A program made the translations under genes and the position numbers. Below, piece by piece: positions 16,654 to 46,169 of a stretch of 64,000 nt of DNA. Under the pieces are notes generated by a model. It saw nothing but the letters and a program-made list of their open reading frames with translations. It was not told where the DNA came from and ran no database searches. Location of the stretch: the NCBI GenBank assembly GCA_001661245.1, contig KV454018.1, positions 501,944-565,943 on the forward strand, read 5' to 3'. Within the stretch, counting starts at the first letter, position 1, and every line of letters starts with the position of its first letter. The stretch is from Pachysolen tannophilus NRRL Y-2460. Lineage: Eukaryota.

Positions 16654-16654
16654 A

Positions 16655-16693: not shown

Positions 16694-16738
16694 AGAGATC
16701 GATAGGTGGGTAGATGGATAGGGATAGCAATAACATAC

Positions 16739-18548: not shown

Positions 18549-18941
<393 letters not shown>

Positions 18942-19230
18942 CTATATTAAAAGTAACGAAAAAAAAATTTTAAAAATGTTAGCCTTAAATACTCTTAATC
19001 CAATAAGATAATATATATAAACTATTCAAATATTTTTTTCAATCACTTACCTTTTATAATTTGGTTTAATTATTAAATAAAAAGTTTCAAGTTTAAAAAT
19101 AATAGTAATATAAAAATCACCTATGGACCCGACCGAAGAGAGAAAAGACCTCACTCACTACAGAAACTCTTTTTTTTTTGGGAAAAAAAATTTTTTTTTT
19201 TTTTAATTTTTTTTTTTTTCTCTCTCTTTT

Positions 19231-19464
19231 TTAGGGTTATAAGCCCTAAAAGCCCTAAGCTGATTTTTTATTAGAAGCCCAATACACGACTATTTTATTA
19301 AAAAAGATTAAAATTATCATTTGCATTAATTATTACATAATCACTACACATTGAGTCGTTCGCAAAAGGCTAAACAAAACAAAAGAAAAACGACAAAAAA
19401 GCCCCCCTTTTTTTATATCTACAGATTTATAACATATAAAAATATATGTATGTATATCACGTGA
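19231..19464. promoter_or_regulatory. Tbf1-type (TTAGGG...CCCTAA) and Cbf1-type (TCACGTGA) sites upstream of RPL40
   Basis: TTAGGGTTATAAGCCCTAA at 19231-19249, a second AGCCCTAA at 19251-19258, and TCACGTGA at 19457-19464. Tbf1+Cbf1 is the known RP-gene regulatory pair in Candida albicans. Confidence 0.6.
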
Positions 19465-19507
19465 CTATTTGGAAATTTTATTTCATTTTTTTGTTTTCAG
19501 TTAATAT

Positions 19508-26829: not shown

Positions 26830-28587
26830 TTACGGTAAGATATACTTACTCTTGTAAACCCAATCATGTCCTTCCAATTTCACTCCAAATGATTTCACTA
26901 ACTTAAACCAAGTCTCACTTCTGGAAATGTCTTTTTTTCTATTTGGTCCTTTAGTAGCCCAAAATTTGGCTGACTCCACCATCGCCTCTATGAATCCTAA
27001 AGCAGCAGATTTCTCAATGAATTTGATCCCATAATTCTCGTCTCTTTCTGTTCCCCATCCATTTATATATGATTTTCCGACTTCAAATAATGTTGATGAT
27101 AATGGTTCTAGTGGTTTCTGAGGAAAATCCTGAGTTGTCAATGTGGAAGGATCTACTTCAAATTCAAAATCTTTTGATTCGGAGTCTACATCCACACCTT
27201 TGCAAAGCCAAGAAAAAGATACCTTTTCGTTCCTTCTTACGCCATACCCGTATCTCAAAGATAGTCCATACAATAACATTGCATCTTTATTTCCCTGATT
27301 TGCGGCGAGTTTTAACTGATAAGATGCTTCTTCAGCATTACCTTGCTTTTTCAAAGAAATTGCCAACGACACTCTCTGTTCAGGGGTTATAGTCTTTTCA
27401 AGATTTGAATGATATTGAAGTTCCTTTTGGAAAGAATTTGGGTTATGATGAATTCCGCTAGAACAAGAAAAAGAAGAAGATAATGGTGACAATGGTGACA
27501 CCAAAGAATGGTTTATTTTTGGTTTGTAATTGGAAGTTGAACTTGGTACTGTCCCGGATAACAGCAGACTATCTGACCTTTTATGACTTTTATAATCGTA
27601 GAAATCAAATTCATTATTACCATTAATTAATTCAGTTGGATTAGAGAGTGAATGATAATGACTTGGTGTTCTTCTCAGAACATCGGTGGAAGTTTCGAGG
27701 TACGGCTGAAACTCCAAGTTATTCAATGTAGGAAATCTTGATGATAATGGGGATATTTCCGGACCAAAAGAAGGATCATTTTTAGCAATTTGAGGTATAC
27801 TATTGCTGCTTCTACTACCATTAAGAGGGAAAGGACGACTGCGGCTAAGTGAACTGGTGGACCAATATGGAGTAACGGGTGAATTTTTTTCATTTTCAAA
27901 ATCATCAAATGATTCAGTCTGTGATGACAGATACATGCAATTTTTGTTAGTAGATATAATACTTGAAGAGTTAGATTCTTCAATACATGAAGTAAAAGAT
28001 TCTGATGAAACTGATTCTTGTTCTGTTGGTCTATATTTTGGTTTGATGAATCTTCGTTGTAAAGAAGGAAACTTATCTGCGGAAGCATAATTTTGAATGA
28101 TAGGTTTCCGTGTTGTTTCCTTTTTCTTTTCTTTTTGATCTGGTGTCTTATCTAAAGATGAAGTTGAAATAATTGTTTCTAAAGGTAAGGCTGGTAATTC
28201 TTTATCATTAGGACTTTTCTTGGTTCGTATATTTTCATATCCTTGTCTATTATTGTTTGCTGATTCGTTAACTTTCTTCCAGTCAATTTCTTTTTCTATT
28301 TCATCCAATCCTAAATGGTCTAATAATCTCCCTGTAGTAGAAACTGATTCTATAGAAACCATACTAAATCTTTTATCCAAGACATTTGAACCATCTAAAA
28401 TATCACAATGTTCTCCCAGTTGTAATTTTTTTCTCAATTCTAACTTCTCCAATGGTGATACTGTCAAGACATCGTTATTTCCTGATAAAATTGGTTTTAC
28501 AGAAATTTGTAAATTATTGTTATTGTTATCCTCAGTAGTAGGGCTGAACCCATACCCAGTTGTAACCCGATATTTTGTTATAGGCAT
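26830..28587 (-). CDS. DSF2: Dsf2/Nif1-like Sel1-repeat protein
   Basis: Ser-rich N-terminus. C-terminal TPEQRVSLAISL...EEASYQLKLAA..GNKDAMLLYGLSLRYGYG..., LFEVGKSYINGWG and DWVYKSKY end are typical of Dsf2/Nif1. Confidence 0.75.
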   Translation of the reverse strand: MPITKYRVTTGYGFSPTTEDNNNNNLQISVKPILSGNNDVLTVSPLEKLELRKKLQLGEHCDILDGSNVLDKRFSMVSIESVSTTGRLLDHLGLDEIEKEIDWKKVNESANNNRQGYENIRTKKSPNDKELPALPLETIISTSSLDKTPDQKEKKKETTRKPIIQNYASADKFPSLQRRFIKPKYRPTEQESVSSESFTSCIEESNSSSIISTNKNCMYLSSQTESFDDFENEKNSPVTPYWSTSSLSRSRPFPLNGSRSSNSIPQIAKNDPSFGPEISPLSSRFPTLNNLEFQPYLETSTDVLRRTPSHYHSLSNPTELINGNNEFDFYDYKSHKRSDSLLLSGTVPSSTSNYKPKINHSLVSPLSPLSSSFSCSSGIHHNPNSFQKELQYHSNLEKTITPEQRVSLAISLKKQGNAEEASYQLKLAANQGNKDAMLLYGLSLRYGYGVRRNEKVSFSWLCKGVDVDSESKDFEFEVDPSTLTTQDFPQKPLEPLSSTLFEVGKSYINGWGTERDENYGIKFIEKSAALGFIEAMVESAKFWATKGPNRKKDISRSETWFKLVKSFGVKLEGHDWVYKSKYILP

Positions 28588-29446: not shown

Positions 29447-31783
29447 TTATGATTTTGAAATAGCAGCTGTATAATAAGAACCAAAAACATTCCAGTGAAA
29501 ATTAACTAGAGTTGAAAGTCTTAAACCTAATGCATGTAATTCTTCTAAAGTGCCTAATTTCTTATTTTGACTTTTATTGTCAGCAGAATTGGTTGAATCA
29601 GTACTAGAAGTAGTTGAAGTTGCGGTTAAACATTTCTTATTAATATTGACTGACCTTAAAACACTACCTATATTTGAACTACCACCACTTACAGGTATTG
29701 GAATATCATTAGGTGAAATTTCTTTTGTATTCGAATTACTTGAATCAGTGTTTTCATTGACAATAACAGCTAACTGATCAAATATTCTTTGTTCCATTAA
29801 TCCATAAACTTCAGATGAAGGTTGTGTTTGTACTATTAACCAGTTGAAACCAAAATCAACTAAGCTTTCAGGCGGTGTAATAAAATCTTGTGATATTGAT
29901 GAAATTGAAGGTTTTGAAGGATCATTACAAGCTCTCTTAGCCAACTGCAAAGCAAGCGATGAAACGTTTCTGGTCCATTTTACATTTCCGTTTTCATCAG
30001 TAACAATTGCTAGTATTTCTCTTTTCAATGACTCTATATTTTCTTTAGAAATTGCCTTAGCCCTATATGAAGCTGATTTTGAATATTGAAATAACATTTG
30101 TTTGTATAATACAATACACAACTGCAAACAAACTAATTGTCTAATATCTGCTCTTAATAACACTAATCTTGCATGATCAAATGCCAATGATGATGGGAAT
30201 GATGTTACCATGTTACGACAGGATAACAACTTTAAAATGGAAACTGTACAAATATTTTTCAACTTCACTGTCTTTTCTTTTTTAGATTCATGCAGAGTAC
30301 AAAACCAGGCTATTGAATCAGATATATCCATCTTACAATGACTAATCATTTGGCTGAAATAATCTCTTTCAAATTCAACTGCTGTTTCAACCAATACTGG
30401 TCTTAAAGTTCTTATTTGGTGGTTAGCAACATCAAGTTTCATTGCTTCTAATATTGCAAATATCATTCTTAACCCATCAACCAATTTATCAACTGAACCT
30501 TCTTCTTGGGCCGCTACAAATTTTGATGTCATTTCGTCTACCCAAGAGTCTCTCATTGGAGCACAGTGTGATTTGAAAACTTCGGATAACCATTTGGCCA
30601 AAGAAACAAAATCAAATGCAAAATTTTTTAACTGTTGTACTAATAAATCATCATCCATGATATCATAAACTGCAGCTCTGTTTTTTGATGGAAGTAAACT
30701 TATTAAAATTTCTCTTAAAGTTGTAAATAAAATTGGTAATCTTGAAACAGATGTATTAAATTGTCTTTTTAATACATATTGTTCACATTCTTTCTTTATA
30801 TCATCCCAATATTTATCAACCATCATTTTCTTCTTACGTCCTCTTTCACCATCTAAATTTGGTCTAAATTGTAATTGTGGATCAAATAATATGTCATGTC
30901 TAAGTTGTGGGTTTTTTAAGATTTCATGTAAATCTATTTCTCTTAAACTTTGTAAATTAACTGGTGGCAATTGATGAGCTTGTGATGATTGTTGGAATGA
31001 TAACAACTTTGTTGGCTGTAATCCTTCTTTTGATGATGAAACGCATGATATATTTGGGAAAAAAGGTTGTTGTTGCGAAAACACTGTTGCCATCGATGGA
31101 ACTGCATTTACAACTGTTTGACTTGGCATTGTTAATTTATGACGACGATTTGAAGCATAAAAAATATTTGGTAACGATCTTGACCGGAAACGTCTCAAAT
31201 TCATTCTTCTAGTTTCATGATCATCTTGTTCTTTCTTTGATGAAGAAGTAGTGGTTGTTGTTGAAGATAACGTTGTTGTTTGATTTTTATTTGAAGACAA
31301 AATTGAAGGAGTTACTGATGATAGTGGCGTGGTTGAATTAAAGTTTAAAGTGGACGCCAATAATTTTGCATTAAAATTTCCCTTTTCTAAGGCAAATATT
31401 CTATTTGTATCATTAGAAACAGCTTGCCCAGCTACCGGTGTATTTGACGTTGTTGTTGGAACATTTGTTTGTTTTGAATGAGAAGCAAGTTTGGCACCAG
31501 AACTTACTATAGTAGTTGAAGGACTTATTGGTGTTGGTGATAATATTGATGACGCATTCGGTGTCTGAGCCTGTGTTTGTTTTGCCGATAAAGGCACTGA
31601 TGCATCCAACCTTGCTCTCTTACTGCTTTTATTGCTTTCAGAATCCGTTGACTCATTATCACTTGAAGAAGAAGAACTTGGCCTTTTATTTGTTGAGTCA
31701 AAAAATACCGGCCTAAACTGGTCCTCTGAAAATATTTGTTCTTGATTCTCTGTTTTCTGGTTATTAATCTGAGATGAATTCAT
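29447..31783 (-). CDS. SOK1: Sok1 (Tcp11 family)
   Basis: RSRSLP, LPPVNLQSLREIDLHEILKNPQLRHDILFDPQLQFRPNLDGERGRKK, HCAPMRD, MKLDVANHQIRTLRP, FHWNVFGSYY. Confidence 0.95.
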   Translation of the reverse strand: MNSSQINNQKTENQEQIFSEDQFRPVFFDSTNKRPSSSSSSDNESTDSESNKSSKRARLDASVPLSAKQTQAQTPNASSILSPTPISPSTTIVSSGAKLASHSKQTNVPTTTSNTPVAGQAVSNDTNRIFALEKGNFNAKLLASTLNFNSTTPLSSVTPSILSSNKNQTTTLSSTTTTTSSSKKEQDDHETRRMNLRRFRSRSLPNIFYASNRRHKLTMPSQTVVNAVPSMATVFSQQQPFFPNISCVSSSKEGLQPTKLLSFQQSSQAHQLPPVNLQSLREIDLHEILKNPQLRHDILFDPQLQFRPNLDGERGRKKKMMVDKYWDDIKKECEQYVLKRQFNTSVSRLPILFTTLREILISLLPSKNRAAVYDIMDDDLLVQQLKNFAFDFVSLAKWLSEVFKSHCAPMRDSWVDEMTSKFVAAQEEGSVDKLVDGLRMIFAILEAMKLDVANHQIRTLRPVLVETAVEFERDYFSQMISHCKMDISDSIAWFCTLHESKKEKTVKLKNICTVSILKLLSCRNMVTSFPSSLAFDHARLVLLRADIRQLVCLQLCIVLYKQMLFQYSKSASYRAKAISKENIESLKREILAIVTDENGNVKWTRNVSSLALQLAKRACNDPSKPSISSISQDFITPPESLVDFGFNWLIVQTQPSSEVYGLMEQRIFDQLAVIVNENTDSSNSNTKEISPNDIPIPVSGGSSNIGSVLRSVNINKKCLTATSTTSSTDSTNSADNKSQNKKLGTLEELHALGLRLSTLVNFHWNVFGSYYTAAISKS

Positions 31784-32260
31784 TTTCCTTTTTCTTTTTT
31801 TTTTAAAAAATTATATGAAAAAAAAAAAAAAATTGATTATTAAATAAAAATTTCTCTGATCGTGATATCTAATAAGTAAAAGAGAAAGAAATAAAAAAAA
31901 TTAAATAAAAAAATGCAAACCCTTTTCTTTATACAAAAGGGTGGATGATATTAAAGCAAAAGATGAATAGTAATAGATAAGATAAAAAAAAAACCCAACC
32001 AAGAAAAAATCAAATAAACAAAATAAAAAGAAAAAAAGGAATAGTTATTAAATAAAATAAAGATAGAAAGAAACGAGAAAATGAATTAATTATATTTTAA
32101 AAAAAAAATGAGGTCCATACTAAAAAAGAAAAAAATAAAGAAAAAAAAAAAAAAAAAGAAAAATATATTGAAACTCTCAGGTAATATTTATTATATTGAC
32201 TTCCGTTAATTGTGTTGATGTACGTACATAGTAGTAGTAAGCATTTCTTTTTTTTCTTTT

Positions 32261-32316
<56 letters not shown>

Positions 32317-32780
32317 NNNNNNNNNNNNNNNNNNNNNNNNNNNNNNNNNNNNNNNNNNNNNNNNNNNNNNNNNNNNNNNNNNNNNNNNNNNNNNNNNNNN
32401 NNNNNNNNNNNNNNNNNNNNNNNNNNNNNNNNNNNNNNNNNNNNNNNNNNNNNNNNNNNNNNNNNNNNNNNNNNNNNNNNNNNNNNNNNNNNNNNNNNNN
32501 NNNNNNNNNNNNNNNNNNNNNNNNNNNNNNNNNNNNNNNNNNNNNNNNNNNNNNNNNNNNNNNNNNNNNNNNNNNNNNNNNNNNNNNNNNNNNNNNNNNN
32601 NNNNNNNNNNNNNNNNNNNNNNNNNNNNNNNNNNNNNNNNNNNNNNNNNNNNNNNNNNNNNNNNNNNNNNNNNNNNNNNNNNNNNNNNNNNNNNNNNNNN
32701 NNNNNNNNNNNNNNNNNNNNNNNNNNNNNNNNNNNNNNNNNNNNNNNNNNNNNNNNNNNNNNNNNNNNNNNNNNNNNNNN
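32317..32780. other. Assembly gap (N run) within a poly-T tract
   Basis: Run of n characters. Confidence 1.
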
Positions 32781-33014
32781 TATTATTTTTCTTTTTTTTT
32801 CCTTTTCTTTTTTTTTTCTTTTCTTTTTTTTTTTTTTTTTTTTTTTGAGATCCCAAGCACGAGTCATGACTCAACTCACTAAGTAAAATGTAGTAAAACG
32901 TAGTAAAACTTAGTTGTAGAGTCAGGCGACACCACTAGTTGAGTAGTTAAGTAGTGCCGAAGAAAGAGAAAAAGTTTAAACTTTAAAGCAAGAATCAGTG
33001 TTATTGTCACGCTA

Positions 33015-33110
33015 TGACGTGGGTAGTGGTAGCGGTTGGTGGTAGTGTAAGGACGTGGTTGTACGTGGTAGTACGTGGGTAGTACGTGAGTAGTACGTGA
33101 TAGTATGTAT
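33015..33110 (+). repeat. Degenerate tandem repeat (GTAGTACGTG-like, 10-11 bp period)
   Basis: ACGTG cores at 33053, 33063, 33073, 33084 and 33095, plus one at 33017. Confidence 0.8.
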
Positions 33111-33893
33111 AGAGTTTTAAAAGGATGACACATAAATATGACAGAATCTACTAGAATCGCTGATAGTAGGAAACAGCAAATAAAAATTGGTGAAGAAGTC
33201 AGCTAGCTAAGTGGCAAATGATAAATTTTATTTGCTTAACAAATAAAGTAATTATTATTAGAGAGAAAAAATGTATGTGTGTATGTAAGTTTCAGGATGA
33301 AAATAGAATAGAAAAATAATATCATTTAAAACAAATAAAAGAAAAAGATTTAAGATTTTTGTATGGACTGGTGAGACTTTAACCGTGGTAGAAAATTCTG
33401 AAATTTAAATTCTACAAATTCTACTTTTTGACAATTTTATGATTATTAAGATTTTCACTATCTTTTAAACAAAAAGAACATTCGAGTATTTTGAATTTAC
33501 TTGCTCCATCCAAGATAAGTATCAAGAGAAAACTAATTCATATGTACGCGTACGCGTTATTGAATCCATATCCATTTGAATTTCAATTAATAAATTATCA
33601 TTTAAAATAAATAACCTTGTTTAATTAATTGGTTTCCTAAATTTGTTTATTTTTTATTTTTATTTTTATTTCATTATTATTGTTACAAAATCAATTTCAA
33701 TTTGTTATTTTTGAAACAATCTAATTATGAAAATTATTGAGCAAACAAATATAAAAACAAGGTTCTTACACGGATTAAATTTTTTCTCAGTAAAGCATTA
33801 TAAAGCATTATCCCTTACAGCAAGAAAATAACCCAAAATTTTTTGTTTTCCAAAAAAAAGACAAAAAAAAAAAAAAATAAAGAAAAAAAGAAA

Positions 33894-33926
<33 letters not shown>

Positions 33927-36900
33927 TTGGCTTCGCTCTGCACTACTCAATAAGGCATATTCTTCCGATACAGGAATTAAAAGCCGCAGCCGTATCAAGG
34001 AATATTAACGCCGTCTTTAAGCTTAATCTTAAAAAAGATATTATGATGAAAAATGCCTTCAATAACTTTTACCGCTGACTGGTATTACAATTACCGTAGT
34101 TAAAATTTCTTTGGTATTGCTTTATAAGCAAGTACACGAAGTAATAATAGTCAGATAAAAAAGGAAAAAAAAAGAAAATTATGAAAGCAATACTGTTTCC
34201 AAGCATCTTCTGCATTTTTCATGCATGTTTAACATGTAAACAATATAATATAATCTATCTGTCAATCAGAAAAACATTTAATCGTTTTGACATTTATTTC
34301 TATCTCACAAACCATTATTACTTCAAATATAGATAGATATTCAACAAATCTTTCAACTCATACTCTCGAATTGTAAATCTATCAATCTCTAATAACTTTT
34401 GGGTTTGATATCTATCCATCTGCCGTAACATTTGCACCGTAAAAAAAGCCCTCAATTTCATTAACTAAAAAAAGAACATTACCTAAATGAAATTTTAAGA
34501 TAAAGCTAATCAAGATTAAATATTCTTGGCTTTACTCCCCCGCTATTCTCTTTCACCCCCTCTCACACTTTGATATCTCTTTAAAGCAAAAGCATTGTTT
34601 TTCAATGAACCCTAAATTACTGTGAATTTATTGTCAGTATTTCTGAAACATCGAGATAATTATAAATATTTTTGCAAAAACTTCATGGTCTAACTACTAT
34701 ATTATTTTTAGGTGAAATCCTAGCCTTATCTCGAATAAGTAAACCACTAACTAATTTTTCTTAGGTTAAACAGAAAGATAATAGATAGAAAACGGTAAAC
34801 AGAGCTAAATGACTCAATATAAGAAAATTAATTAACTTTTCAAGGTTATATAGTTTTTTTCCTTTTTTCTTCATAAACTATGGATTTTTCAAACTTCTTA
34901 CTTTCCTTTCCTCAAATTACGCTTCAAAAGGAAAGCTTTATTCATGATACCAGCCTATTCGTAATTACAACAACTCATGTTTAACATCCTCAGAAGTAAA
35001 AAGCACATAGAGCAGCAAATTGTCTCTTGTTTCGCTTTCATCAAAAAACTAGGCTGATATCTTTCCAAATTAAAAAATAAAAATTATACAGGTAATTAAT
35101 TCCATTCAACAGACTCAACTTACAGAAATATTTCATTTTTCTCCCTGTACAAATCATTATTTCCAACTTTGTCTCCAATCACGAACTGGGGGCACTCGAA
35201 AAACAATTTGAAAGTTTACATTTTCTTATCTTCATCAATGAGAACGCTAAATACATCTACACTCTAATTAGATAATTGTATGTGATTTCTAATCTACAAA
35301 GAAGTGACCTCATTGCTTTCTGCTTCCACTCAAAAGACCATTAAGCAATTTATATAGCTTTCTTGCATAACTGCCTCTACAGGATATATATAAAAGCGGT
35401 TCTTTCACATTACATACACTTTAGAGAGATAGAAAAAACGACTTTTCAGGTCAAAAAATTACATAAGAAAATCAATAAAATCGATTTCTTTTTTTGTCTT
35501 ACTTTATCTCACCATGTTAGCTTGTGATTAATAAGATTTCTGAATACTAATTTCGTCTAGTATTTTTGACTGTGATCGGGAAGGTATGTTCAAAATCAAA
35601 TTAATATTGTAAAAATATTGTAGCAATTTGTTGATTCAAAGTATTGATTCAAAACGAACCTTATCCATTCGTACTTTCTTCTTTATTCTTTACTTTCCGC
35701 TTTATCAAAGCATGTTGTTAAAGTTTAAACAGCCTAAGATAGTTATCAGTTTTCCTACCTTACCTCCAATGGTTTCCCGAAGGTTTTCAGATATTTAGAA
35801 CCAAACAAGAAGTAAAAAAAATTGCATAATTTGCATCAAGTTGTTATATACATTGTGTTCTCAGTAAGGTAATAAATTTAAAAGTTGTTTTCTATAGCAG
35901 ACATAATACCATGATCCGCGCCCTTCTTTTGCAAATTGCTGATAAGATAACACCAGAGAAAGGATACTAGCCTAACATTCACTGCAGTCCTTACAAAAAA
36001 AAGAAAATTCAGAGTTACGGTGGTTATTAAAGACGATCTTCTGTCAAAATCTCTCACATATGAAAGAATTAGGTTACAAGGCAAAGACTCTAAAGGTTGT
36101 TTGGGATAAGAGCCTCGATGAAACTTGTGCGAAGACTAAATATCATATTTATCCTTATAATGTAGGCTCTGAAATTAATGACTCCACAACAGTCTCTGCG
36201 TTTCTGGGTCTTCAAATGAGTGCTAATTTCTAAGAAATTATTTTTCGACTGCACCACAGAAAAAACAAAAGTATCTTTAAAGGTTAGGAGCCTTTGTGCT
36301 ATTTTAGATTTTTTACAGTCCATGAACTGTTTTGAAGTATTTCTTACTCTATTTTATATTCTTCACACATGAGCATCGGATACATTCCTAAAGTCTTCCA
36401 CAAAGCATAGGAATAAAAGAAAGAAGAGTTTATCTTGCTTAAAAAAAAACAAAAATCTAGCTTTAAGGCGCATTTCAAGGTAAAAAAAAGTAAATTTTCT
36501 GTTGATTGCATTGGAAATAAAGAGAACAGTTTCCAGGAAATTTAAACCTTAGGAGAAATGATGGTTTTCCAAAACCACAGGAGATCAGAATCCAATTATT
36601 AGACTTCTGATAGAACCATGCTGCAACATCTCCACGAAGAGCTTTGTACGACTTCTAAAACTGAAAGTGACAAAATAATAGTATAATTCTATTACAGGAA
36701 TTTATTTGAGTTCGAAGTTTAAGAATCCAACCAACCTGCTTTATTACAAATTTCTTGTTTCTGAGGAATACCATTTCCGATATTCAAATTAATCACAGAC
36801 AGTTTGGTCAATTGGTGTGTCGAGCTGAATTATCTCTACTTTCTTTGTGTTGACTCTTATCGTATGTAATTCGTGAATGAACTTTTCGAGTAGTTTGGAC

Positions 36901-39900
36901 GTAATGACATATGAAGTTTTTTAGTATTGTATACTCTTGGTGAATAACAATAGTAAGGTTTAAAAACATTCTAGTTAGTCGTTACAAACTCTTAACATCC
37001 AGAAATCTACGATTCTGAAGAAGGAAGTGTGATCTCAATCCCAATGAAATGATTGCTGAACTACCATGGTTTTCAGAAAACCCTGAATATTCCGAAAACA
37101 ATAGAAAATTAAAAGAATGGGTTACTGGATACAAAGCTCAAATTAATCAGAAACTGAACTTCTTGGTTTTGTAGTACTGGATTTGATTTCTAATTCAAAT
37201 GTTTCATTGGTTAATCTAATTACATTTTTCAAAGTTAAAGATTCCAACATTTGCAGTTTTAAATACCAAAGATTCTGACTCGTTTTCTTTGTATTGCCTG
37301 AATCTTTTTTAAGTTACTTTAGAGCCAACAATTATTAAACTGTCCGAAATCAAGTATCGGGGATTTCATCTTTTCTTACCGTCAATCCAGCTTTAATCAA
37401 GGATTAAGTCTTTACTTCTTTTGGAAAGACAAATTCAAAAAAACTGATACGGATTTTAAGTAATAACCTTTATTGCAAATTCACTCAATTTTTCCAAGCT
37501 TTTTAACCATTGACTGCAGTCTATAAAGAAGGGTTAACGCAGAATTCCAACTCTACTTAGAGTTTCAGTGAATCAAAACTCAATGGGATTCCAAAAGTCA
37601 ATTCATTAGGTTCTCTAAGTATAATGTTGACCTACTTTTGAAATGCAAACTAGCATGATTACAGAACGATGTTGATAAGTCCAGAGATAACAACAAGAGA
37701 GTACTTCACTTAAAATTCGTGAGTAGGTCCTAACAGACCAATTGCGTTGTTAGCATCGCGATTTCCAGTGTTACAGAATGAATCCTTCCTTAAGTATTTT
37801 CTTTTTATTTCTCGTTTTGGCAGGTTGAAGAAGAATCAAGAGTAACAGAATTTCTTGCAATACCATAAAACTTGAATCTTTTCAACTTAATATTTAAAAC
37901 AACTGAAAAATTATATAACTTCCAGACACAAGAGCGTCAACTGAATTAGTTGTACCATTACTCTTGAAGTGAATTTTGTCACCTAATGTAGTTGAACTTT
38001 AACGCAACTATCGTTTGCGCAATGTAATGTAGCCAACCTTAATTCAATGTCCTATCATGTGGGTCTGCTGTTCAATCTTCCATTAATAGTCGAATTGACA
38101 TCATATATTTTTGAGATTGCTGAGCTAAGATTCAGAAAGACAAGTAGAAGTATTAGTGCATCATCTTACCTCCCTTCATTTAATTCATCGCATTTTTCGT
38201 TATATAAAATTTCTTGTAAAATTTCTGATTTAAAAGAGAACAATGAGTGCATTGGGATTGCTAGATGACGCCAAATTAACGGATGCAGTATTTGCAGTAT
38301 TTGAGATTTAGTTTATAGGATTTAAGAGAAAGACTTTTACGTACTACTGACGGATATCGAGCTACTAACTAATTAGTACAACAAAGATTTATTTGAGCAT
38401 GTATTCGAATAGTAGATTATTGGGTAAGGTAGATGAAATAAAATTAAAAAAAAAAAGTTAAGCAACAACTTCAAGTTCGTTCATTATATTACAATTTTGT
38501 TTGGTTGTAAAAGCGACGGAATCTTTTTTCTTAGATTCTTTTTAAATAAAGAATAGAATTTTTTAAGATTTAATGAATTGTACATTAGATTTTGACTCCT
38601 TTTCTTTATTGTCTAAATTATTCAAAAAGATATGAAAATCTAGTGATCCGTCGAGTGCTTTTCTCTATAAGATATTCAATTTCGGGGTCATTGCGTATAT
38701 TGCGTCTGGTTTCTGTTTATGAGAAGAAACAAAGATTAGGAACACTGAGTTAAAAAATACTACTCTTGAAAATACAGTATTTATGTTACCAAATAAGGGA
38801 TACTACCTTGATTCTGGCAACAATAATTCATGATCAAACCTATGAAGTATTAAATTGTGCCTTTAGGAGGCTGCTGAGGTATTTCTGAAGCTATCTATTT
38901 TCGCAATTAGAGAAAATGATAAAAAGGTGGCTGCATGACTCTCAGTATCCAGCCTGTTGTACCTTTTGCCAAGTATTTGGAAGCAATTTTTAGTCTATAG
39001 TTTTTGCTGAACGCTATAACAAAACTGAAAGTTCTTGACAGACAATATTTAAAGGTGGTGAATTGTAGAAAGATCCAATAAATGTTTTATAGAAATTGTG
39101 ATTTTCAATAAACTATATGGCTTTTAATTTTTTTTTTTTTTTTTTGGTTTTCAGTTCTTATTCTTAAGTGAAGAGTTAGGATATTGTAGAAAGAAGCTAC
39201 TTCTGTAACATCAAATTTACAAAAAGTTGAAATGACTGATCGAAAACTATATCATCCAGCACATAACTTCGGTAGGAAGACTTTACTTAGACATACGATG
39301 CATAAGTGAGTTTGAGCTCAAATATATATTTGAGCTCAGATATTTAGTAATAAATAATAGTTTTCCGTCATCGTTAGTGTGAGAGGGTTAACCAATTATT
39401 AGCAGCTATACCGTAGTTATACTTTCCTTTCTCTTGTTAAAAGAAGTTATTCTCTGCATTCTATTTATTAGTCTGGAATTTTGAGTTTTATCCGATAATC
39501 ATTGCGCAAAATTCTCAGCCATAGTTTAGTTGTCGTTTCTCTCGCAGGGAAAAGTAATGGCTAGGTTTCCATTTTTACAAATTGCAAACTTAGTCGAACT
39601 GACTGTATCTACGGAGTAATTACTATGGAGATTGTAGTTCTTTTGAACCTAACACATACTTCTAGGTTAATTTGGTTCTGATAATTTGCGTGCATTTTGT
39701 AAGTTGTTAACATCCTATAGATTTCAACTTTGTTAAATATAGGATTTCATTTTTGTAATGAAATTGCCTTTGAGAATCACTATTTTAATTGAGATGTTTA
39801 GAAAAGAAAACAGAAGGGAGTTAGCGAGCTAGCTTCAAACTGCAATTTACGGGGTGCAAAAAGATGGAAACGTGATTTTTTTCAAGCACTGTATGGAAGA

Positions 39901-41088
39901 AGAAGATTTCCCGGTGATGAGGATCTTCTGCTTTAGTCACAGTGAGTATCAATGGTGTAGCTGTATTTATAACAGTATGGCATCAATTCTGCTGGAAGTG
40001 AAATGCCACCTTTATATTGACGTTTCATTTTTCTTGGATATTACAGATGTAATTAAATTATCGGAAAGAAGTTTTATTATCGCTGCAAATATTGACGTTA
40101 GTGAGAAATACAGCTACAGAGAAAGTGTTACTAACCTTTCAAAAAAAATTTGTTTGCACTTTTCAAATATTAATATTTTTTTTCTTTTTTTCCGAATCAA
40201 ATAAATTGAGCAGCTCTTGAAAATTACTTAATGTGAAATTAGTACTGAGCAACCCTCAATAGCTTTATGGAAAAAATGTATCTATGTATTTATGAATGCC
40301 AGATTAGAAATCCAAGTTTGAAGATAAAAAAAATAGACAATGCAGTGCAGTAATGTTTTCTGTCTAAGTAATATTTGTAGAATAAAAGTATTTATTACCT
40401 GAAAGTATCCAATTTTCTGTAGAAAAACACTCTTTTAAATGTTTTCATCTCACAGAGTATAGTGGTTTATGTTGAGCTTCAAATAGGAAATTTGTTGAAA
40501 TTAATCCAAGAACCTTATAATTCGAACTTCTGAATTCAATAAAACGAGGATGGAGAAATACGTAAATAATCTATGAGAGATAAATTTTTTCAGTAACATG
40601 AATTATTAGTTTAGATGGACTGAAATCAAATTTTAAAACATTTCGCAAAAAATATAGAAGATATAAGAAATATTTTTGAACTAATGCAATCAAAAAATTG
40701 GATCTAAATTTTTTACATTTTTAATTTTTAATTTTTATTTGTTCCGTCAAATTTATTTGCTATGAACTTTGTACGCTTTTCCGATTCAAATGTTAGTTTG
40801 AACAAAAAAAGCGATAATAAAGAGTTTTCTATTCAATCTGTCCTGTTTAACAGTGAAGATTTGCAATTGCAATGTCTTTCGTAAAATTTAGTACCTTTAC
40901 TCAAAATATCGAAGGTAGTGCAAGTAAGATCAAAAGTGTTTATACTAAAAGGATGAGGGGCTGTTGGAATTAAGTCTTGATGCAAAATTGATATTTAACA
41001 TAACGACGTTGAAATATTTGTTCATATTCATAGTATGAATGCTATCATTATTAGTCCAGTTGAAGTAAACGAAATAGTAGTATAGAAT

Positions 41089-41465
41089 ATGACATCTGTT
41101 TCAGTGAAAGTTGAGTTTTTGTATGTCTTGACCTGGTAGTTATTTTGTCATCAAAGCTTACTAACTATTTTTTTAAATAAATGAGCAGAGGTGGTTTAGA
41201 TCAAAATTTTAATGGAATAAAGACTAAACAGTTAACTGTACAAAAAGAGTCGTCACCTATTCTATTCAAAGACTTAATAAATCATATTGTTGAAAATTAT
41301 ATTTCTAACAAAAAGGATTTGGAAACTTTTATTGAAGAAGATACAATTCGTCCTGGTATATTAGTTTTAATCAATGATACAGATTGGGAATTGGAAGGAA
41401 AAGAAGACTACGAATTAGAAAATGGTGATTTAATTACTTTTACATCGACATTACACGGTGGTTAA
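41089..41465 (+). CDS. URM1: Ubiquitin-related modifier Urm1; exons 41089-41120, 41189-41465
   Basis: MTSVSVKVEF-L|GGLD... with GTATGT at 41121, TACTAAC at 41159, CAG ending 41188. Ends IRPGILVLINDTDWELEG...FTSTLHGG. Confidence 0.96.
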
Positions 41466-41536
41466 TCTCTGAAAGATGGTATATTGAATTATGAGGGGGG
41501 TTTTCATAATATATGATGTATTTTTCGCTAATAATC

Positions 41537-42355
41537 TCATAAAGGATTTATTCTACATCCCAATAAACCATTTCCATCCCAATTTGTGGTTGGCGTTAAA
41601 TATACATTAATTAGATCATTTCCTCTTATAACCTTGAGTTCAATTTGCTTCTGAATGTTGATATATAACTTTTGTGTTAATATTTTGAATGCTCAAAAAA
41701 AAAAGAAATAAAAGAAAAAGGGAAAAAATTGCAGTTTAGAATCAAATTTTGTACTTACATCTTCATTTTTCTTCACGATTTCTGCTACTTTTTTCAAATT
41801 ATCATGATTTCCAGCATTTATAGAACCAATTTTTATTATTTTATCGTTTTTATTCAATCCTGCTTTGTAAGAAGGACTTTCTTCGATAACTTCTGTAACA
41901 ATAGCAAACGGTACTGTAGATTCTTCTGTATTTCCATCAGTGACAGCTAAATCGGTTAATCGACTTGTTACAGAAAGCTTTTCCTGTAAGCATAGTTCTA
42001 TCATATTCAAAAGTGTTTTCAAGTCATTTCTAAAATATATGATTTTAGACCTTGTAAGCCTCACTTTAATTTTAAAAACTTCTGTTAGTCAATTTCTAAT
42101 ATCAAAAAAAAATTTAATTTATTTAAAAAATTACTCACCTTGTACAACATCAATGTCTGATCTTGGAAACCCATCAATCGTCACCAATTCAGAATCCATA
42201 TCACAGTTAAATTTCTCCAAATGATCAAATAAATTAGATAAATTTTGTTCTATTTTCTTTTTAATCTTTATTAAATCATCAAGTGTATGATTTTTCGAAT
42301 TCAAGTCATAATTTTCATCTAGCTCTATTTGATGTAAAGAACTTAAGCGTGGCAT
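41537..42355 (-). CDS. NAS2: Proteasome assembly chaperone Nas2 (PDZ); exons 42355-42139, 42063-41759, 41650-41537
   Basis: MDSELVTIDGFPRSDIDVVQ|VRLTRSKIIYFRND, PFAIVTEVIEESPSYKAGL...D.IIKIG, LTPTTNWDGNGLLGCRI. Donors are GTGAGT and GTAAGT. Confidence 0.93.
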
Positions 42356-42664
42356 CCTGATCCATAAAAAAATTAGACTAATGATTCAAAAGGGAAGCAA
42401 ACGATTTGCACTCTTACAACCTCTCACCTGTGGCTTGAATATGAATTAACTAAACTATTAACATGAATGGAAAACAATAGTAGTTCATAGAAGCGCGAAA
42501 AGTTCAAAGTAAATGAAAAATCGTTGAAGTTTATCAAAACCGAAAAGATATTTATTTATTTATTCACAATTTTGACGCCACGAACTGTTAGAAATCATAA
42601 TCATATATTAATTATCTACATAAAAGAGATAAGTGTATAAAAAAAATAGCTAAAAGAATTAGAG

Positions 42665-43393
42665 ATGAAGTTATTTTCAATTTTGGCTGCTTCTATATCA
42701 TTATTTTCAATTCTACCAAAAGGTGTGAATGCTGATTCAAATCTTGAGAATTTTGTTCCTACGGAAAAAAAACCATTCAAGTTTGAAATTCATTATTCAG
42801 TTTTAGAAAAACAAAAATCCATTACTGACATTGTTCCAGTAGAGAATGGTGAGACTTTTATCTTAGGTTATACTTTTATAAATGGTGAAGACAATGATGT
42901 TACCATTGTTGGTGTGGGTGGTTCTTTTAATGATCCTACCACTGGATTTGTACATGCTAATATTTCCGATGCTTCACTTGGTCCACTTTTAATTCCGGCT
43001 GGTACATCTGCTAACTTTTCTCAAAAAGTTGGTGTTGATGTTGCTCCTAGTGATTATTTGGTAGTGCCAACGATCTATGCTTCTTATAATCATACATTAA
43101 TTGCTTTAGGTACAAGATCGCAATTGATTTCTGTTGAAGATCCAAAAGTTTCAATTTTTAATCCTCAGTTAATATTTTTGGAAATTATCTTGGTAGCATC
43201 GATTGCTGGATTAGGTTATATCTTGTATGTAAATTTTGGTTACAAATATTTGAAAGGGGCTGCACCAATTAGAGGTTCAGCTTCACTTTCTGCTACATCT
43301 AAAGTTTCAACTGTTGGTAAAACAAGTGGCTACGATGAATCATGGTTGCCAAAAGAACATTTGAAATCTAAAAGAACCAGAAAAGCAAATTAA
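42665..43393 (+). CDS. IRC22: Irc22 / TRAP-alpha-like ER membrane protein
   Basis: Signal peptide, NGE....YTFINGED.DVTIVGVGGSF, SIFNPQLIFLEIILV (TM), YDESWLPKEHL. Confidence 0.85.
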   Translation: MKLFSILAASISLFSILPKGVNADSNLENFVPTEKKPFKFEIHYSVLEKQKSITDIVPVENGETFILGYTFINGEDNDVTIVGVGGSFNDPTTGFVHANISDASLGPLLIPAGTSANFSQKVGVDVAPSDYLVVPTIYASYNHTLIALGTRSQLISVEDPKVSIFNPQLIFLEIILVASIAGLGYILYVNFGYKYLKGAAPIRGSASLSATSKVSTVGKTSGYDESWLPKEHLKSKRTRKAN

Positions 43394-43490
43394 TAACAAA
43401 TATTAAAATTTCAGAATAGCTTATATATGTGTTGAATTGAACTTAATTTCCTATTTCCATTCACTTTTTTTTCTTTTTTTTCTTCAAAAG

Positions 43491-45357
43491 AAAAAAAAAA
43501 AAAAAAAAAAGGTTTATATAGGAAAAATGGTAGGTAATATACATTAAAATTCAGTATCAATTCGGTAAATTATATTAAATAAAATATATTTATGCTTCCA
43601 ATCCTAATTTGAATAACAAATCATCCAATTTTTTTAGGTCCGTTTGATATTTATTCATCTGATCGTAGTCAATCAAACTATTTTCATCATCGTCATCTTC
43701 TATTTCAATGGCATGTCTTTTAGCTAGGTAAAATCTTATATCATCAATTAATTCAATGGTATCTGTATCTTCTCTTATTTCAATTCTTTGAGCACTTTCC
43801 AAAATTACTTCTGAGAATTCTTCCTCTTCAATATATTTATCTAAATCATTTGCTATTAGTTTGGCAACAAAGACTTCCAACCTGTGGACTCTTGTTTGCC
43901 AACCTGCTCTTAATATATCATACACAGAAATCTCATCAAAATTTTCTATCTTTGTTAATGAAATGGCAGCCATAGTTTTCAATCTATCTATAAACAAGAC
44001 ATCAGAAATAAGTAATACTTCTATTGCTAAATTATCAGGAATTTCCGCTTCATCGTAATATAAGTAGCTTAATATGATTTCAGCAACTTCCATCGTTAAC
44101 ATAGAAATTGATAAAGATATTACTGGGATAGATTCTGGATTTTTCAACATAACTGATCTATCAATAACTTCATGATTTTCTAAGATTGATTCATAAATTA
44201 GAGTTTCAGAAAAAGATGAATTAAACATAGTTTCAAAATATTTAGATTTTGATAAGATTGCTCTATGAGCAGGGAAATATATTTTTCTCTCATCTTCATC
44301 TTCAACACAAACTAAGATATCTGGACATGTAAAATGTTGAAATAATTTAGATTTTTCATCAATTGATNNNNNNNNNNNNNNNNNNNNNNNNNNNNNNNNN
44401 NNNNNNNNNNNNNNNNNNNNNNNNNNNNNNNNNNNNNNNNNNNNNNNNNNNNNNNNNNNNNNNNNNNNNNNNNNNNNNNNNNNNNAAAAAAAAAAAAAAG
44501 GTTTAATATAGGAAAAATGGTAGGTAATATACATTAAAATTCAGTATCAATTCGGTAAATTATATTAAATAAAATATATTTATGCTTCCAATCCTAATTT
44601 GAATAACAAATCATCCAATTTTTTTAGGTCCGTTTGATATTTATTCATCTGATCGTAGTCAATCAAACTATTTTCATCATCGTCATCTTCTATTTCAATG
44701 GCATGTCTTTTAGCTAGGTAAAATCTTATATCATCAATTAATTCAATGGTATCTGTATCTTCTCTTATTTCAATTCTTTGAGCACTTTCCAAAATTACTT
44801 CTGAGAATTCTTCCTCTTCAATATATTTATCTAAATCATTTGCTATTAGTTTGGCAACAAAGACTTCCAACCTGTGGACTCTTGTTTGCCAACCTGCTCT
44901 TAATATATCATACACAGAAATCTCATCAAAATTTTCTATCTTTGTTAATGAAATGGCAGCCATAGTTTTCAATCTATCTATAAACAAGACATCAGAAATA
45001 AGTAATACTTCTATTGCTAAATTATCAGGAATTTCCGCTTCATCGTAATATAAGTAGCTTAATATGATTTCAGCAACTTCCATCGTTAACATAGAAATTG
45101 ATAAAGATATTACTGGGATAGATTCTGGATTTTTCAACATAACTGATCTATCAATAACTTCATGATTTTCTAAGATTGATTCATAAATTAGAGTTTCAGA
45201 AAAAGATGAATTAAACATAGTTTCAAAATATTTAGATTTTGATAAGATTGCTCTATGAGCAGGGAAATATATTTTTCTCTCATCTTCATCTTCAACACAA
45301 ACTAAGATATCTGGACATGTAAAATGTTGAAATAATTTAGATTTTTCATCAATTGAT
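43491..45357. repeat. ~870 bp direct duplication (about 43491-44367 and 44486-45357) across an N gap (44368-44485); likely assembly artefact
   Basis: Near-identical copies offset by 990 bp on either side of the gap. The first copy holds only the 3' part of the BTB gene. Confidence 0.85.
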
Positions 45358-46169
45358 AATTTGGATTCATCTTTTGAAAGTATTATCTTATCTCTAATAA
45401 TCTTATTGCTTAATTTTTTCAAATCATCACGAGCATTTTCTTCAATTTGTGTTTGAATTCTATTCTTAGCCTTTATCATATGAATTTTATCATTTTCTGG
45501 AATATTTTTAAGTTCTTGAATATGATTAAATAAATTTTCTAATTTTAATTCTTTTGATAAGTGTTCTAATTCTTGAGTATTATTTGGATCAAAGTTATTG
45601 AAACACGGAATTAAATAAATATAATTAATTATAAAATTAAAGGCCTCCAAGCTAATATCATGTGGCATTTCAATTGTTAATTGATTCTGATATTTAGAAT
45701 GATTCAATTTTTCATTAAAATATTCACTTCTAATTACTAATAAGAATCTGTGTAATTTAAAATTTTGTGAAAATTTATTTTGAAAGCTTAATATAACATC
45801 AGAGGTTTTATTAAAATCAGTCAATATTGAAGAAATATAAGAAGCAAAAGGTTGATTTGATAAATTCATATTTTTCGAAATATCAAAACCTAATAATATA
45901 TTTTTAATATTATCATTTAAAGCTCCATAAATACATCGTTGACCTTCAAAAGTATCACGATCACATGTAGCATTCCCCCTGTTTAACAACAACTTCACAA
46001 TATCTTCATGACCACATAAGCTAGCCAAAATCAAAGGAGAATAATTCCATTCATCCATTTGATTAACATTTATACCAGTTGAAATAATCATATCTACTGT
46101 CTCAATATCTCCAGTTCGGCATGCTAAACAAAGCTCTCTAAACTTCCCATCATGACTTAACTTCGACAT
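44580..46169 (-). CDS. Ankyrin-repeat and BTB/POZ protein (YIL001W / Btb3-like Cul3 adaptor)
   Basis: LCLACRTGD, SPLILASLCGHEDIVKLLL..., CDRDTFEGQRCIYGALND, two BTB domains (HRFLLVIRSEYF; AHRAILSKSKYFETMF), REDTDTIELIDDIRFYL. Confidence 0.9.
   Translation of the reverse strand: MSKLSHDGKFRELCLACRTGDIETVDMIISTGINVNQMDEWNYSPLILASLCGHEDIVKLLLNRGNATCDRDTFEGQRCIYGALNDNIKNILLGFDISKNMNLSNQPFASYISSILTDFNKTSDVILSFQNKFSQNFKLHRFLLVIRSEYFNEKLNHSKYQNQLTIEMPHDISLEAFNFIINYIYLIPCFNNFDPNNTQELEHLSKELKLENLFNHIQELKNIPENDKIHMIKAKNRIQTQIEENARDDLKKLSNKIIRDKIILSKDESKLSIDEKSKLFQHFTCPDILVCVEDEDERKIYFPAHRAILSKSKYFETMFNSSFSETLIYESILENHEVIDRSVMLKNPESIPVISLSISMLTMEVAEIILSYLYYDEAEIPDNLAIEVLLISDVLFIDRLKTMAAISLTKIENFDEISVYDILRAGWQTRVHRLEVFVAKLIANDLDKYIEEEEFSEVILESAQRIEIREDTDTIELIDDIRFYLAKRHAIEIEDDDDENSLIDYDQMNKYQTDLKKLDDLLFKLGLEA

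What the first reader, a model, noticed from the sequence alone, without database searches (positions are those of the whole stretch)
31784..41088. Candidate regional centromere between two blocks of ancestrally centromere-linked genes
Seen: about 9.3 kb with no credible gene. From ~34.2 to 41 kb it largely lacks the long poly-A/T and microsatellite tracts that fill other intergenic regions here. Known for S. cerevisiae: SOK1 is YDR006C (near CEN4) and DSF2 is YBR007C (near CEN2). URM1, NAS2, YIA6, EPS1, INP51, YIL002W-A and YIL001W are YIL008W-YIL001W (beside CEN9), and IRC22 and GIM4 are YEL001C and YEL003W (beside CEN5). CEN2/CEN4 and CEN5/CEN9 are whole-genome-duplication pairs. ADI1 (YMR009W) is also CEN13-proximal. 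Inference: this desert is the centromere of this chromosome. It joins the neighbourhoods of two different Saccharomycetaceae centromeres, implying a centromere-to-centromere rearrangement in one lineage. I saw no CDEI/II/III point-centromere consensus, long inverted repeat or intact LTR element by eye, so it may be a unique-sequence epigenetic centromere.
Basis: partly seen in the sequence, partly recalled or inferred. Interest (0 to 1): 0.82.

Follow-up and report, generated by a model that had tools for sequence, protein, structure and literature searches.

The report
Probable unique-sequence centromere beside URM1
A 9.3 kb stretch with no genes, no repeats and a mirror-image base bias, lying next to a gene that borders a centromere in other yeasts, is probably this chromosome's centromere, though nobody has tested that directly.

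Summary
Window 31784-41088 has no credible gene, tRNA (15) or Rfam RNA (14, 50). Its core, 34181-41088, is unlike other intergenic DNA here. GC is 0.307 against 0.25, A/T runs fill 12 against 52 bp per kb, and there are no repeats above chance. It is single-copy and continuous in an independent run.

The centromere reading is indirect but supported on three lines. URM1, which abuts the desert, is published as centromere-adjacent (ancestral CEN7) in Hanseniaspora uvarum and Starmera quercuum. Centromeres in those orders lie in long intergenic regions at conserved sites (PMC12711049). The core also shows a negative-to-positive GC-skew flip with a weaker opposite AT skew and raised GC. That is the signature reported for Candida albicans centromeres (PMC2924309).

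Caveats: divergent coding genes in this window give equally large skew flips. There is no Cse4, Hi-C, RNA or whole-genome data. The link to SOK1 crosses an assembly gap.

Point, proto-point, inverted-repeat, Ty5-cluster and W. anomalus motif-array architectures were tested and not met.

Verdict: probable featureless short regional centromere, a new member of a known kind. Confidence about 0.7.

The parts
31784..41088 (.). Whole gene-free interval between SOK1-like and URM1 (9,305 bp including 464 N)
31784..34180 (.). Left part: ordinary low-complexity intergenic DNA. It has poly-A/T tracts, an ACGTGGTAGT x5 minisatellite at 33053-33105, and the only 150-bp window with at least 87% AT (33579-33740).
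32317..32780 (.). Assembly gap (464 N) with T-rich tracts on both sides. No contig from the laid runs bridges 31774-32856.
34181..41088 (.). Unique-sequence core: GC 0.307, few A/T runs, high complexity, no direct or inverted repeats above chance, no 3-base periodicity
33931..36000 (.). Left skewed flank: GC skew -0.207, AT skew +0.016 on the plus strand
36001..38000 (.). Central unskewed domain (GC skew -0.006, GC 0.324). Inferred position of the skew switch, and so of a fixed replication origin and a Cse4 core. This is inference only.
38001..41088 (.). Right skewed flank: GC skew +0.134, AT skew -0.032. It is the compositional mirror image of the left flank (strand-asymmetric 3-mer component, r = -0.84).
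29447..31783 (-). SOK1-like gene (Tcp11 domain, E 5.7e-117), transcribed away from the desert
26830..28587 (-). DSF2-like gene. The identification is weak: one Sel1 repeat at 29.3 bits, below the cut-off.
41089..41465 (+). URM1: exon 1 plus a GTATGT...TACTAAC intron read from the sequence; exon 2 matches Pfam Urm1 at E 5.4e-31
41693..42088 (-). NAS2-like gene (PDZ plus Nas2_N)
42665..43393 (+). IRC22-like gene (TRAP_alpha)
44580..46169 (-). YIL001W-like gene (Ank plus BTB). One source names a homologue 'YIL001W'.
46702..49593 (+). INP51-family gene (Syja_N plus Exo_endo_phos2)
60055..62274 (-). EPS1-like gene (thioredoxin domains)
62934..63998 (-). YIA6-like mitochondrial NAD+ carrier, running off the window

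Best explanation
The interval holds the centromere of this chromosome. It would be a short, unique-sequence ('featureless') regional centromere of the kind known from Candida albicans.

Proposed working (inferred, not shown). A Cse4/CENP-A domain of a few kb sits in the repeat-free core, most likely around the unskewed centre at about 36-38 kb. It is inherited epigenetically, or through a short motif that one locus cannot reveal. A replication origin fires there constitutively and early. Over evolutionary time the strands read outward from the centre have therefore become enriched in G and, more weakly, T.

The site corresponds to the ancestral CEN7 position next to URM1. On the other side, SOK1/DSF2 derive from the neighbourhood of another ancestral centromere (CEN3), which suggests an arm exchange or a nearby rearrangement.
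For: 1. It is 9.3 kb with no gene, tRNA or Rfam RNA. That is about 3.5 times the next gene-free stretch in the window.

2. URM1 abuts it. URM1 is centromere-adjacent (CEN7) in H. uvarum, where Cse4 ChIP-seq was done, and in S. quercuum, mapped by Hi-C. Centromeres of Phaffomycetales lie in long intergenic regions: 2.2-9.3 kb in W. canadensis and 3.7-7.9 kb in W. anomalus. Their positions are conserved across three orders, and arm exchanges occur at centromeres (PMC12711049, Results and Discussion read).

3. Genes of the YIL001W-YIL008W/YEL001C cluster lie within about 23 kb on the right. PMC13017519 (passages read) reports that centromere-linked genes stay centromere-linked across Pichiomycetes and Saccharomycetes.

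4. The core has a V-shaped cumulative G-C curve with amplitude 276. The null is 58 +/- 30. None of 2000 base shuffles and none of 2000 block shuffles of 100 bp reached the observed value. AT skew runs the opposite way and is weaker. GC is raised over other intergenic DNA. These are the three features described for C. albicans centromeres (PMC2924309, passages read).

5. The asymmetry is mirror-symmetric. The 3-mer strand-asymmetric component correlates at r = -0.84 between the flanks. It is not coding-like: r is 0.06-0.26 against coding sequence, and the period-3 signal is 0.9-2.1 against 26-33 in genes.

6. The core is single-copy and continuous. One contig from an independent run covers 33931-43459 at the depth of the flanking genes.
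Against: - There is no direct evidence of any kind: no Cse4 or Hi-C data, no RNA run listed, and no genome for a genome-wide comparison.
- Skew flips of equal or larger amplitude (340-375 against 276) occur in this same window at divergent coding gene pairs, at about 1.5 kb and 46.4 kb. The skew is not specific, and divergent non-coding transcription toward SOK1 and URM1 could give the same sign.
- The published synteny comes from other orders. This yeast's nearest named relatives are Pichiales, where only inverted-repeat, Ty5-cluster and motif centromeres are described (PMC12711049, Introduction).
- No feature shared with other centromeres of this genome could be sought.
- The left boundary depends on a scaffold join across a gap.
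Confidence: 0.7

Rival explanations
1. It is a long regulatory or non-coding-transcript region. It could be an outsized divergent upstream region of SOK1 and URM1, or one or more unannotated long non-coding RNA genes. Transcription outward from the middle would produce the G+T strand bias.
For: Both neighbours are transcribed away from the desert, the same sense as the skew. Divergent gene pairs in the window give comparable skew flips. Complexity and GC resemble transcribed sequence.
Against: URM1 is a small housekeeping gene, and nothing suggests it needs kilobases of control DNA (inference). There is no Rfam match even at E up to 1. The location coincides with a published conserved centromere site (PMC12711049). 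The asymmetry does not resemble that of coding strands.
Confidence: 0.13
2. It is decayed DNA with no centromere function: old pseudogenes or an ancient mobile-element insertion eroded beyond recognition.
For: GC and complexity are gene-like. The two halves have opposite strand bias, as two divergent dead genes would.
Against: None of 68 ORF pieces reached a Pfam cut-off, and none hit RT, IN or gag. The 123-aa frame had 0 relatives. There is no 3-base periodicity. One frame carries 203 stops in about 2,747 codons, which is near the level I estimate for random sequence of this composition. There are no repeats or LTR pairs. Skew this strong should have decayed along with the coding signal unless something maintains it (inference).
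Confidence: 0.07
3. It is partly an assembly artefact: a misjoin at gap 32317-32780, so the desert is not really flanked by SOK1.
For: No contig in 4 runs bridges 31774-32856 or 33831-33931. Another gap in this scaffold carries an 808-bp duplicate at 100% identity, an obvious artefact.
Against: Both edges of the gap lie in T-rich tracts of the same strand, as expected for one unsequenceable tract. Even if it is a misjoin, 33931-41088 (7.2 kb) remains continuous with URM1-NAS2-IRC22 at single-copy depth, so the centromere candidate stands.
Confidence: 0.05

Closest known systems
Candida albicans / C. dubliniensis short regional centromeres
   Same: Gene-free region of similar size (4-18 kb in those species). 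Unique sequence without repeats. GC skew switching from negative to positive, with a weaker opposite AT skew and raised GC (PMC12711049 Introduction; PMC2924309 passages).
   Different: It is in a different lineage: the nearest named homologues here are Pichiales, not Serinales. Cse4 occupancy, early replication and epigenetic inheritance are unknown here.
CEN7 of Hanseniaspora uvarum and Starmera quercuum (URM1-adjacent centromere)
   Same: URM1 borders the candidate directly, as published for those centromeres (PMC12711049).
   Different: H. uvarum centromeres are compact, with an AT-rich core under 300 bp plus CAM motifs in regions under 2.5 kb (PMC13017519). S. quercuum has a 17-bp motif. 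Here there are 9.3 kb, no match to the H. uvarum motif within 1 mismatch, and no AT-rich core in the unique part.
Featureless or long-intergenic centromeres of H. menglaensis, Barnettozyma and Wickerhamomyces
   Same: A long intergenic region at a conserved site (2.2-9.3 kb in W. canadensis). Some of these centromeres have no repeat or motif (PMC12711049).
   Different: The W. anomalus 21-bp motif is absent (0 hits in the desert at up to 5 mismatches). LTR-derived sequences could not be recognised, and the region is single-copy.
Komagataella phaffii inverted-repeat centromeres (the best-scoring named homologue for YIA6)
   Same: A non-coding region of a few kb with two arms around a central domain. 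Here the arms are compositional mirror images.
   Different: There is no sequence similarity between the arms. The best ungapped match is 61 of 120 in inverted orientation, against 62 in direct orientation and 58-61 in shuffles. The top self-BLAST score is 32.8 bits against 26.5-31.0 in shuffles.

Membership tests
Point centromere (CDEI-CDEII-CDEIII) | CDEI (RTCACRTG; consensus recalled) | tested here: not met
   0 matches in the desert and 5 elsewhere in the window
Point centromere (CDEI-CDEII-CDEIII) | CDEIII with a CCG core beside an AT-rich CDEII of about 80-200 bp | tested here: not met
   TTCCGAA occurs at 37090 and 40190, about the number I estimate by chance. No 150-bp window with at least 87% AT lies near them; the only such window is at 33579-33740.
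Proto-point centromere (Saccharomycodales) | AT-rich core under 300 bp flanked by CAM motifs, in a region under 2.5 kb | tested here: not met
   The region is 9.3 kb. The best match to the H. uvarum half-site pattern has 2 mismatches, at 37732. CAMs differ between species, so a species-specific motif cannot be excluded.
Inverted-repeat centromere (K. phaffii, C. tropicalis, Barnettozyma) | A pair of inverted repeats of 0.5-4 kb with high identity | tested here: not met
   Only poly-A/T 'repeats' were found. Self-BLAST is at chance level. The diagonal scan is at chance level.
Ty5-cluster centromere | Ty5 coding relics | tested here: not met
   None of 68 ORF pieces hit RT, integrase or gag
Ty5-cluster centromere | LTRs shared between chromosomes (multi-copy) | tested here: not met
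   One contig spans 33931-43459 at single-copy depth in an independent run. Old, diverged solo LTRs cannot be excluded.
Motif-array centromere (W. anomalus type) | Tandem copies of the 21-bp motif GTTTCTYSAGTTATATCTSTG | tested here: not met
   0 hits in the desert at up to 5 mismatches. No tandem array was found in the core.
Featureless short regional centromere (C. albicans type) | Gene-free unique region of several kb | tested here: met
Featureless short regional centromere (C. albicans type) | GC skew switching from negative to positive, a weaker opposite AT skew, and raised GC | tested here: met
   The feature is not specific: coding-driven flips of equal size exist in the window.
Featureless short regional centromere (C. 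albicans type) | Cse4/CENP-A occupancy of 3-5 kb and kinetochore function | not testable with these tools
   No ChIP or Hi-C data were reachable
Featureless short regional centromere (C. albicans type) | One such locus per chromosome | not testable with these tools
   No genome is held for this window
Ancestral CEN7 location | Adjacency to URM1 and linkage to YIL001W/IRC22-cluster genes | tested here: met
   PMC12711049. Most orthology is at family level only.

The most novel reading that the evidence does not exclude
A Candida-albicans-type centromere has arisen in a lineage related to Pichiales, where only inverted-repeat, Ty5-cluster and motif centromeres are described. It would be unique in sequence, inherited epigenetically and built around a constitutive early origin. 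It sits at the ancestral URM1/CEN7 site and is fused to genes from the ancestral CEN3 neighbourhood. That would extend the conservation of centromere position beyond the three orders where it was mapped. It would also show that the replication-skew signature of featureless centromeres evolves repeatedly.
Probability: 0.4. Interest if true: 0.6.

Novelty: new member of a known kind. Interest (0 to 1): 0.45.

Why it matters
If confirmed, this gives a mapped centromere in a yeast lineage for which I found no published centromere map. In one search I saw titles and abstract starts of 10 of 11 papers and passages of one.

It would be another data point for the recent claim that yeast centromeres keep their chromosomal place while their structure turns over. 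It would also give a practical handle for stable plasmids and chromosome engineering.

It also suggests a cheap predictor of centromeres in draft yeast genomes: a long unique desert, plus conserved centromere-linked neighbours, plus mirror-symmetric skew.

Tried and rejected
- Whole genome: none is held, so no genome-wide desert statistics, no GC3 trough and no search for sequence shared with other centromeres.
- RNA: no RNA holder was listed, so nothing can be said about expression.
It was redone with 68 stop-free pieces, with no family above cut-off.
- Rfam at gathering threshold and at E up to 1: nothing. tRNA scan: nothing.
- Repeated words: 53 repeated 11-mers against a mean of 30.6 and a maximum of 46 in mononucleotide shuffles. 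This is a modest excess without any recurring motif.
- The first self-BLAST timed out and was rerun with a larger word size.
- Earlier findings of this scan: 5 look-ups, all empty.
- Supplements of PMC13017519 were searched for Pachysolen, Peterozyma, Nakazawaea, URM1, SOK1 and YIL001W. Only RNA-seq rows for SOK1 and URM1 came up. Supplementary Data 3 lists Ty5 clusters for five species, none from Alaninales. Its Supplementary Figures PDF and the figures of PMC12711049 could not be read, so the gene maps around CEN7 and CEN3 were not seen.
- CUG decoding: I tried to place the lineage by how CTG is read, without result. The only CTG sites I could align to a homologue or paralogue pair with Ser in a paralogue (by eye), Gly in 6ry0, and a mostly hydrophobic column with I, L or V in 11 of 19 homologues.
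Full report
**Observation**

The window is AT-rich, about 28% GC, and densely packed with yeast genes. Between the stop-free SOK1-like ORF (29447-31783, minus strand) and the URM1 start codon at 41089 there is no credible gene.
- The only ATG ORFs of 100 aa or more are two frames that run through the N gap and one 103-aa ORF at 39893-40204.
- The longest stop-to-stop frames are 123 and 90 aa. My rough estimate is that 123 aa has a chance probability of about 0.07 in 6.9 kb of this composition.
- I scanned 68 stop-free pieces of 40 aa or more against Pfam. None reached a family cut-off, and none touched reverse transcriptase, integrase or gag.
- The 123-aa frame has no relative among 1.84 billion representatives.
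- There is no tRNA and no Rfam family, at gathering threshold over the whole window or at E up to 1 in the desert.
- The gap is 32317-32780, 464 N.

**Is the size unusual?**

Within the window the other large spaces between long ORFs are 3.1 kb and 4.7 kb. They turn out to hold small or spliced genes:
- an RPS14-like exon at 12015-12443 and an RPL39-like ORF at 14398-14547 (names from reading the translations);
- a PRA1/YIP3-like gene at 15692-16150 and a Pmp3-like gene at 54458-54622.

The next-largest gene-free stretch is therefore about 2.6 kb. I could not ask whether such deserts are rare genome-wide, because no genome is held.

**Two parts**

The left 2.4 kb (31784-34180) is ordinary low-complexity intergenic DNA. 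A/T runs fill 113 bp per kb, and there are minisatellites.

The core (34181-41088) is different.

| Measure | Core 34181-41088 | Other intergenic DNA | Coding sequence |
|---|---|---|---|
| GC | 0.307 | 0.25 | 0.305 |
| A/T runs of 8 or more, bp per kb | 12.4 | 52.3 | 2.3 |
| 5-mer complexity | 0.828 | 0.704 | 0.791 |

The comparison set was defined between ORFs of 100 aa or more, so it includes the small genes named above. That makes the contrast conservative.

The core is nevertheless not coding. The period-3 signal is 0.9-2.1, against 26-33 in three genes. One frame carries 203 stops in about 2,747 codons, close to what I estimate for random sequence of this composition.

**No repeats**
- The repeat finder returned only poly-A/T families and arms.
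- Self-BLAST of 33931-41088 gave a top score of 32.8 bits, against 26.5-31.0 in ten shuffles.
- A diagonal scan of the left part against the reverse complement of the right part gave 61 matches in 120. The direct orientation gave 62, and eight shuffles gave 58-61.
- No tandem array of note lies in the core.

Known centromere motifs are absent:
- CDEI: 0 in the desert.
- TTCCGAA: 2, with no AT-rich block beside either.
- H. uvarum half-site pattern: best match has 2 mismatches.
- W. anomalus 21-mer: 0 at up to 5 mismatches.

**Copy number and continuity**

Contigs of four runs from two studies were laid on 28-44 kb.
- In the run from the independent study, one 9,618-nt contig covers 33931-43459 with no differing letters. 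Its depth is 20.5, against 22.4 over SOK1.
- In the other three runs the same stretch is split only at the T18 run near 39.1 kb.
- The core is therefore single-copy, is joined to URM1-NAS2-IRC22, and shares no recent repeat with other loci.
- No contig bridges 31774-32856 (the gap and its homopolymer flanks) or 33831-33931 (an A-rich tract). The link to SOK1 rests on the scaffold alone.
- Both edges of the gap are T-rich on the same strand. This fits one long unsequenceable tract, though such tracts are common here.

**Strand asymmetry**

| Segment | GC skew | AT skew |
|---|---|---|
| 33931-36000 | -0.207 | +0.016 |
| 36001-38000 (GC 0.324) | -0.006 | +0.013 |
| 38001-41088 | +0.134 | -0.032 |

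- The V-shaped cumulative G-C curve has amplitude 276. The null is 58 +/- 30. None of 2000 base shuffles and none of 2000 block shuffles of 100 bp reached it.
- The strand-asymmetric 3-mer components of the two flanks are anticorrelated (r = -0.84). The left flank resembles the reverse complement of the right (r = 0.975) more than the right itself (r = 0.881).
- The asymmetry does not resemble that of coding strands (r = 0.06-0.26).
- The strand read outward from the centre is enriched in G and, weakly, T.

Koren et al. (PMC2924309, passages read) describe the same set of features at all C. albicans centromeres: a GC-skew switch, an opposite and weaker AT skew, and raised GC. They attribute it to a constitutive origin, with G and T enriched on the leading strand.

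An important control goes the other way. Sliding the same statistic along the window gives larger amplitudes (340-375) at two divergent coding gene pairs, with a median of 148 and a 95th percentile of 310. The desert's skew is real, but no larger than what gene orientation produces. Outward non-coding transcription could mimic it.

**Neighbours**

Pfam and named homologues support these identifications:
- SOK1-like (Tcp11), IRC22-like (TRAP_alpha), INP51-family, ADI1 (ARD) and EPS1-like;
- YIL001W-like (Ank plus BTB, with a source name 'YIL001W');
- YIA6-like (source names 'Yia6/Yea6' and 'NAD+ transporter');
- URM1 and NAS2.

DSF2 rests on one Sel1 repeat below Pfam's cut-off. Except where a source name is given, orthology is at family level. 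I did no reciprocal tests. The S. cerevisiae systematic names and their distances from CEN2, CEN4, CEN5 and CEN9 are recalled knowledge.

**Literature**

Hession et al. 2025 (PMC12711049; Introduction, Results parts 1-3 and Discussion read):
- They mapped centromeres by Hi-C in nine species, and by Cse4 ChIP-seq in H. uvarum.
- Locations are conserved across Saccharomycetales, Saccharomycodales and Phaffomycetales while structure changes.
- Centromeres sit in long intergenic regions: 2.2-9.3 kb in W. canadensis, 3.7-7.9 kb in W. anomalus, and 1.1-4.2 kb and 'featureless' in H. menglaensis.
- URM1 is the centromere-adjacent gene shared by CEN7 of H. uvarum and S. quercuum.
- Rearrangements near centromeres are small inversions, small insertions or deletions, or arm exchanges.

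Haase et al. 2026 (PMC13017519; abstract, one section and passages read):
- They name the NTH1-UGA2 region. In S. cerevisiae that region lies between CEN4/CEN2 and SOK1/DSF2 (recalled).

The figures and gene maps of both papers could not be read.

**Which yeast?**
- The YIL001W-like protein's best named hits are Brettanomyces (42-43%), Lachancea (42%), Wickerhamomyces and Cyberlindnera (43%). Hanseniaspora vineae is at 38%.
- For YIA6 the named hits that score best are all Pichiales: Komagataella 57%, Brettanomyces 53-54% and Ogataea 53%. Kuraishia (54%) follows further down the list. One unnamed relative is at 59%.
- The lineage is therefore outside Saccharomycetales and Saccharomycodales and nearest to Pichiales.
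- As a recalled, low-confidence lead only: the GC content and the roughly 12.5 Mb of contigs would fit Pachysolen, in the order next to Pichiales.
- A search for Pachysolen plus centromere found 11 papers. From the titles and abstract starts of the 10 listed, and passages of one, none maps its centromeres.
- The unnamed relatives' YIL001W and YIA6 homologues both list a longest contig of 48,276 bp. That suggests conserved linkage, but I could not fetch that contig.

**Interpretation**

The most economical reading is that the centromere of this chromosome lies in this interval and is of the featureless, unique-sequence regional kind.

Shown:
- the desert exists;
- it is unique in sequence and single-copy;
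- its composition is unusual;
- it has a mirror-symmetric skew;
- it is adjacent to URM1 and to the YIL00x cluster.

Inferred:
- Cse4 occupancy;
- the position of a core near 36-38 kb;
- a constitutive origin;
- epigenetic inheritance or a hidden motif.

**The claimed fusion of two centromere neighbourhoods**

This sub-claim is plausible but weaker.
- Only SOK1 and a doubtful DSF2 stand for the second neighbourhood.
- The NTH1-UGA2 genes are not in the window.
- SOK1 and DSF2 point away from the desert, whereas in S. cerevisiae, by their systematic names (recalled), they point toward the centromere.
- More than a simple arm exchange would therefore be needed.

**Verdict**

This is a sound, checkable centromere candidate and a new member of a known kind. 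It is not a new kind of element. Confidence in the centromere reading is about 0.7. The main rival is a long regulatory or non-coding-transcript region (0.13).

Noticed in passing
window 43560-44367 and 44550-45357, either side of gap 44368-44485: An 808-bp stretch is duplicated at 100% identity on both sides of an N gap, copying the 3' part of the YIL001W-like gene. It looks like a scaffolding or gap-closing artefact. Joins at gaps in this scaffold therefore deserve caution.
   Followed up: yes
window 53646-53992 and 55341-55717, around gap 55123-55161: Several stop-to-stop frames recur with identical translations about 1.7 kb apart, on either side of a third N gap. This is either a tandem duplication or another assembly artefact.
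   Followed up: no
window 33053-33105 and 32882-32914: Two minisatellites lie just right of the gap: ACGTGGTAGT in 5.1 copies (an ACGTG core repeated) and AGTAAAACGT in 3.3 copies. Their function is unknown.
   Followed up: no
window 39313-39338: A perfect 26-bp palindrome (TGAGCTC, an AT-rich centre, then GAGCTCA) lies in the right flank of the core. It is the longest palindrome in the core. One search reports 9-bp arms; I read the full extent from the sequence.
   Followed up: partly
window, 19 long ORFs: CTG codons are rare: 42, against 567 TTA and 233 TTG. They sit mostly at poorly conserved positions. The few I could align pair with Ser (a paralogue), Gly (PDB 6ry0) and a mostly hydrophobic column. 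Whether CUG is read as Leu in this yeast remains open.
   Followed up: partly
window 12015-16150 and 15692-21706: Micro-synteny with S. cerevisiae survives away from the desert as well. RPS14-like, RPS22-like (Ribosomal_S8) and RPL39-like genes lie together, and a PRA1/YIP3-like gene lies about 3.4 kb from the leukotriene-A4-hydrolase gene, with two ORFs between them (16739-17956 without a Pfam match, and the ubiquitin-RPL40 fusion at 18549-18935). The S. cerevisiae neighbour relations are recalled.
   Followed up: no
P0003 and P0121: The closest unnamed homologues of YIL001W (54%) and YIA6 (59%) both list a longest contig of 48,276 bp. The relative probably keeps these genes linked, and that contig may hold the homologous desert.
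   Followed up: no
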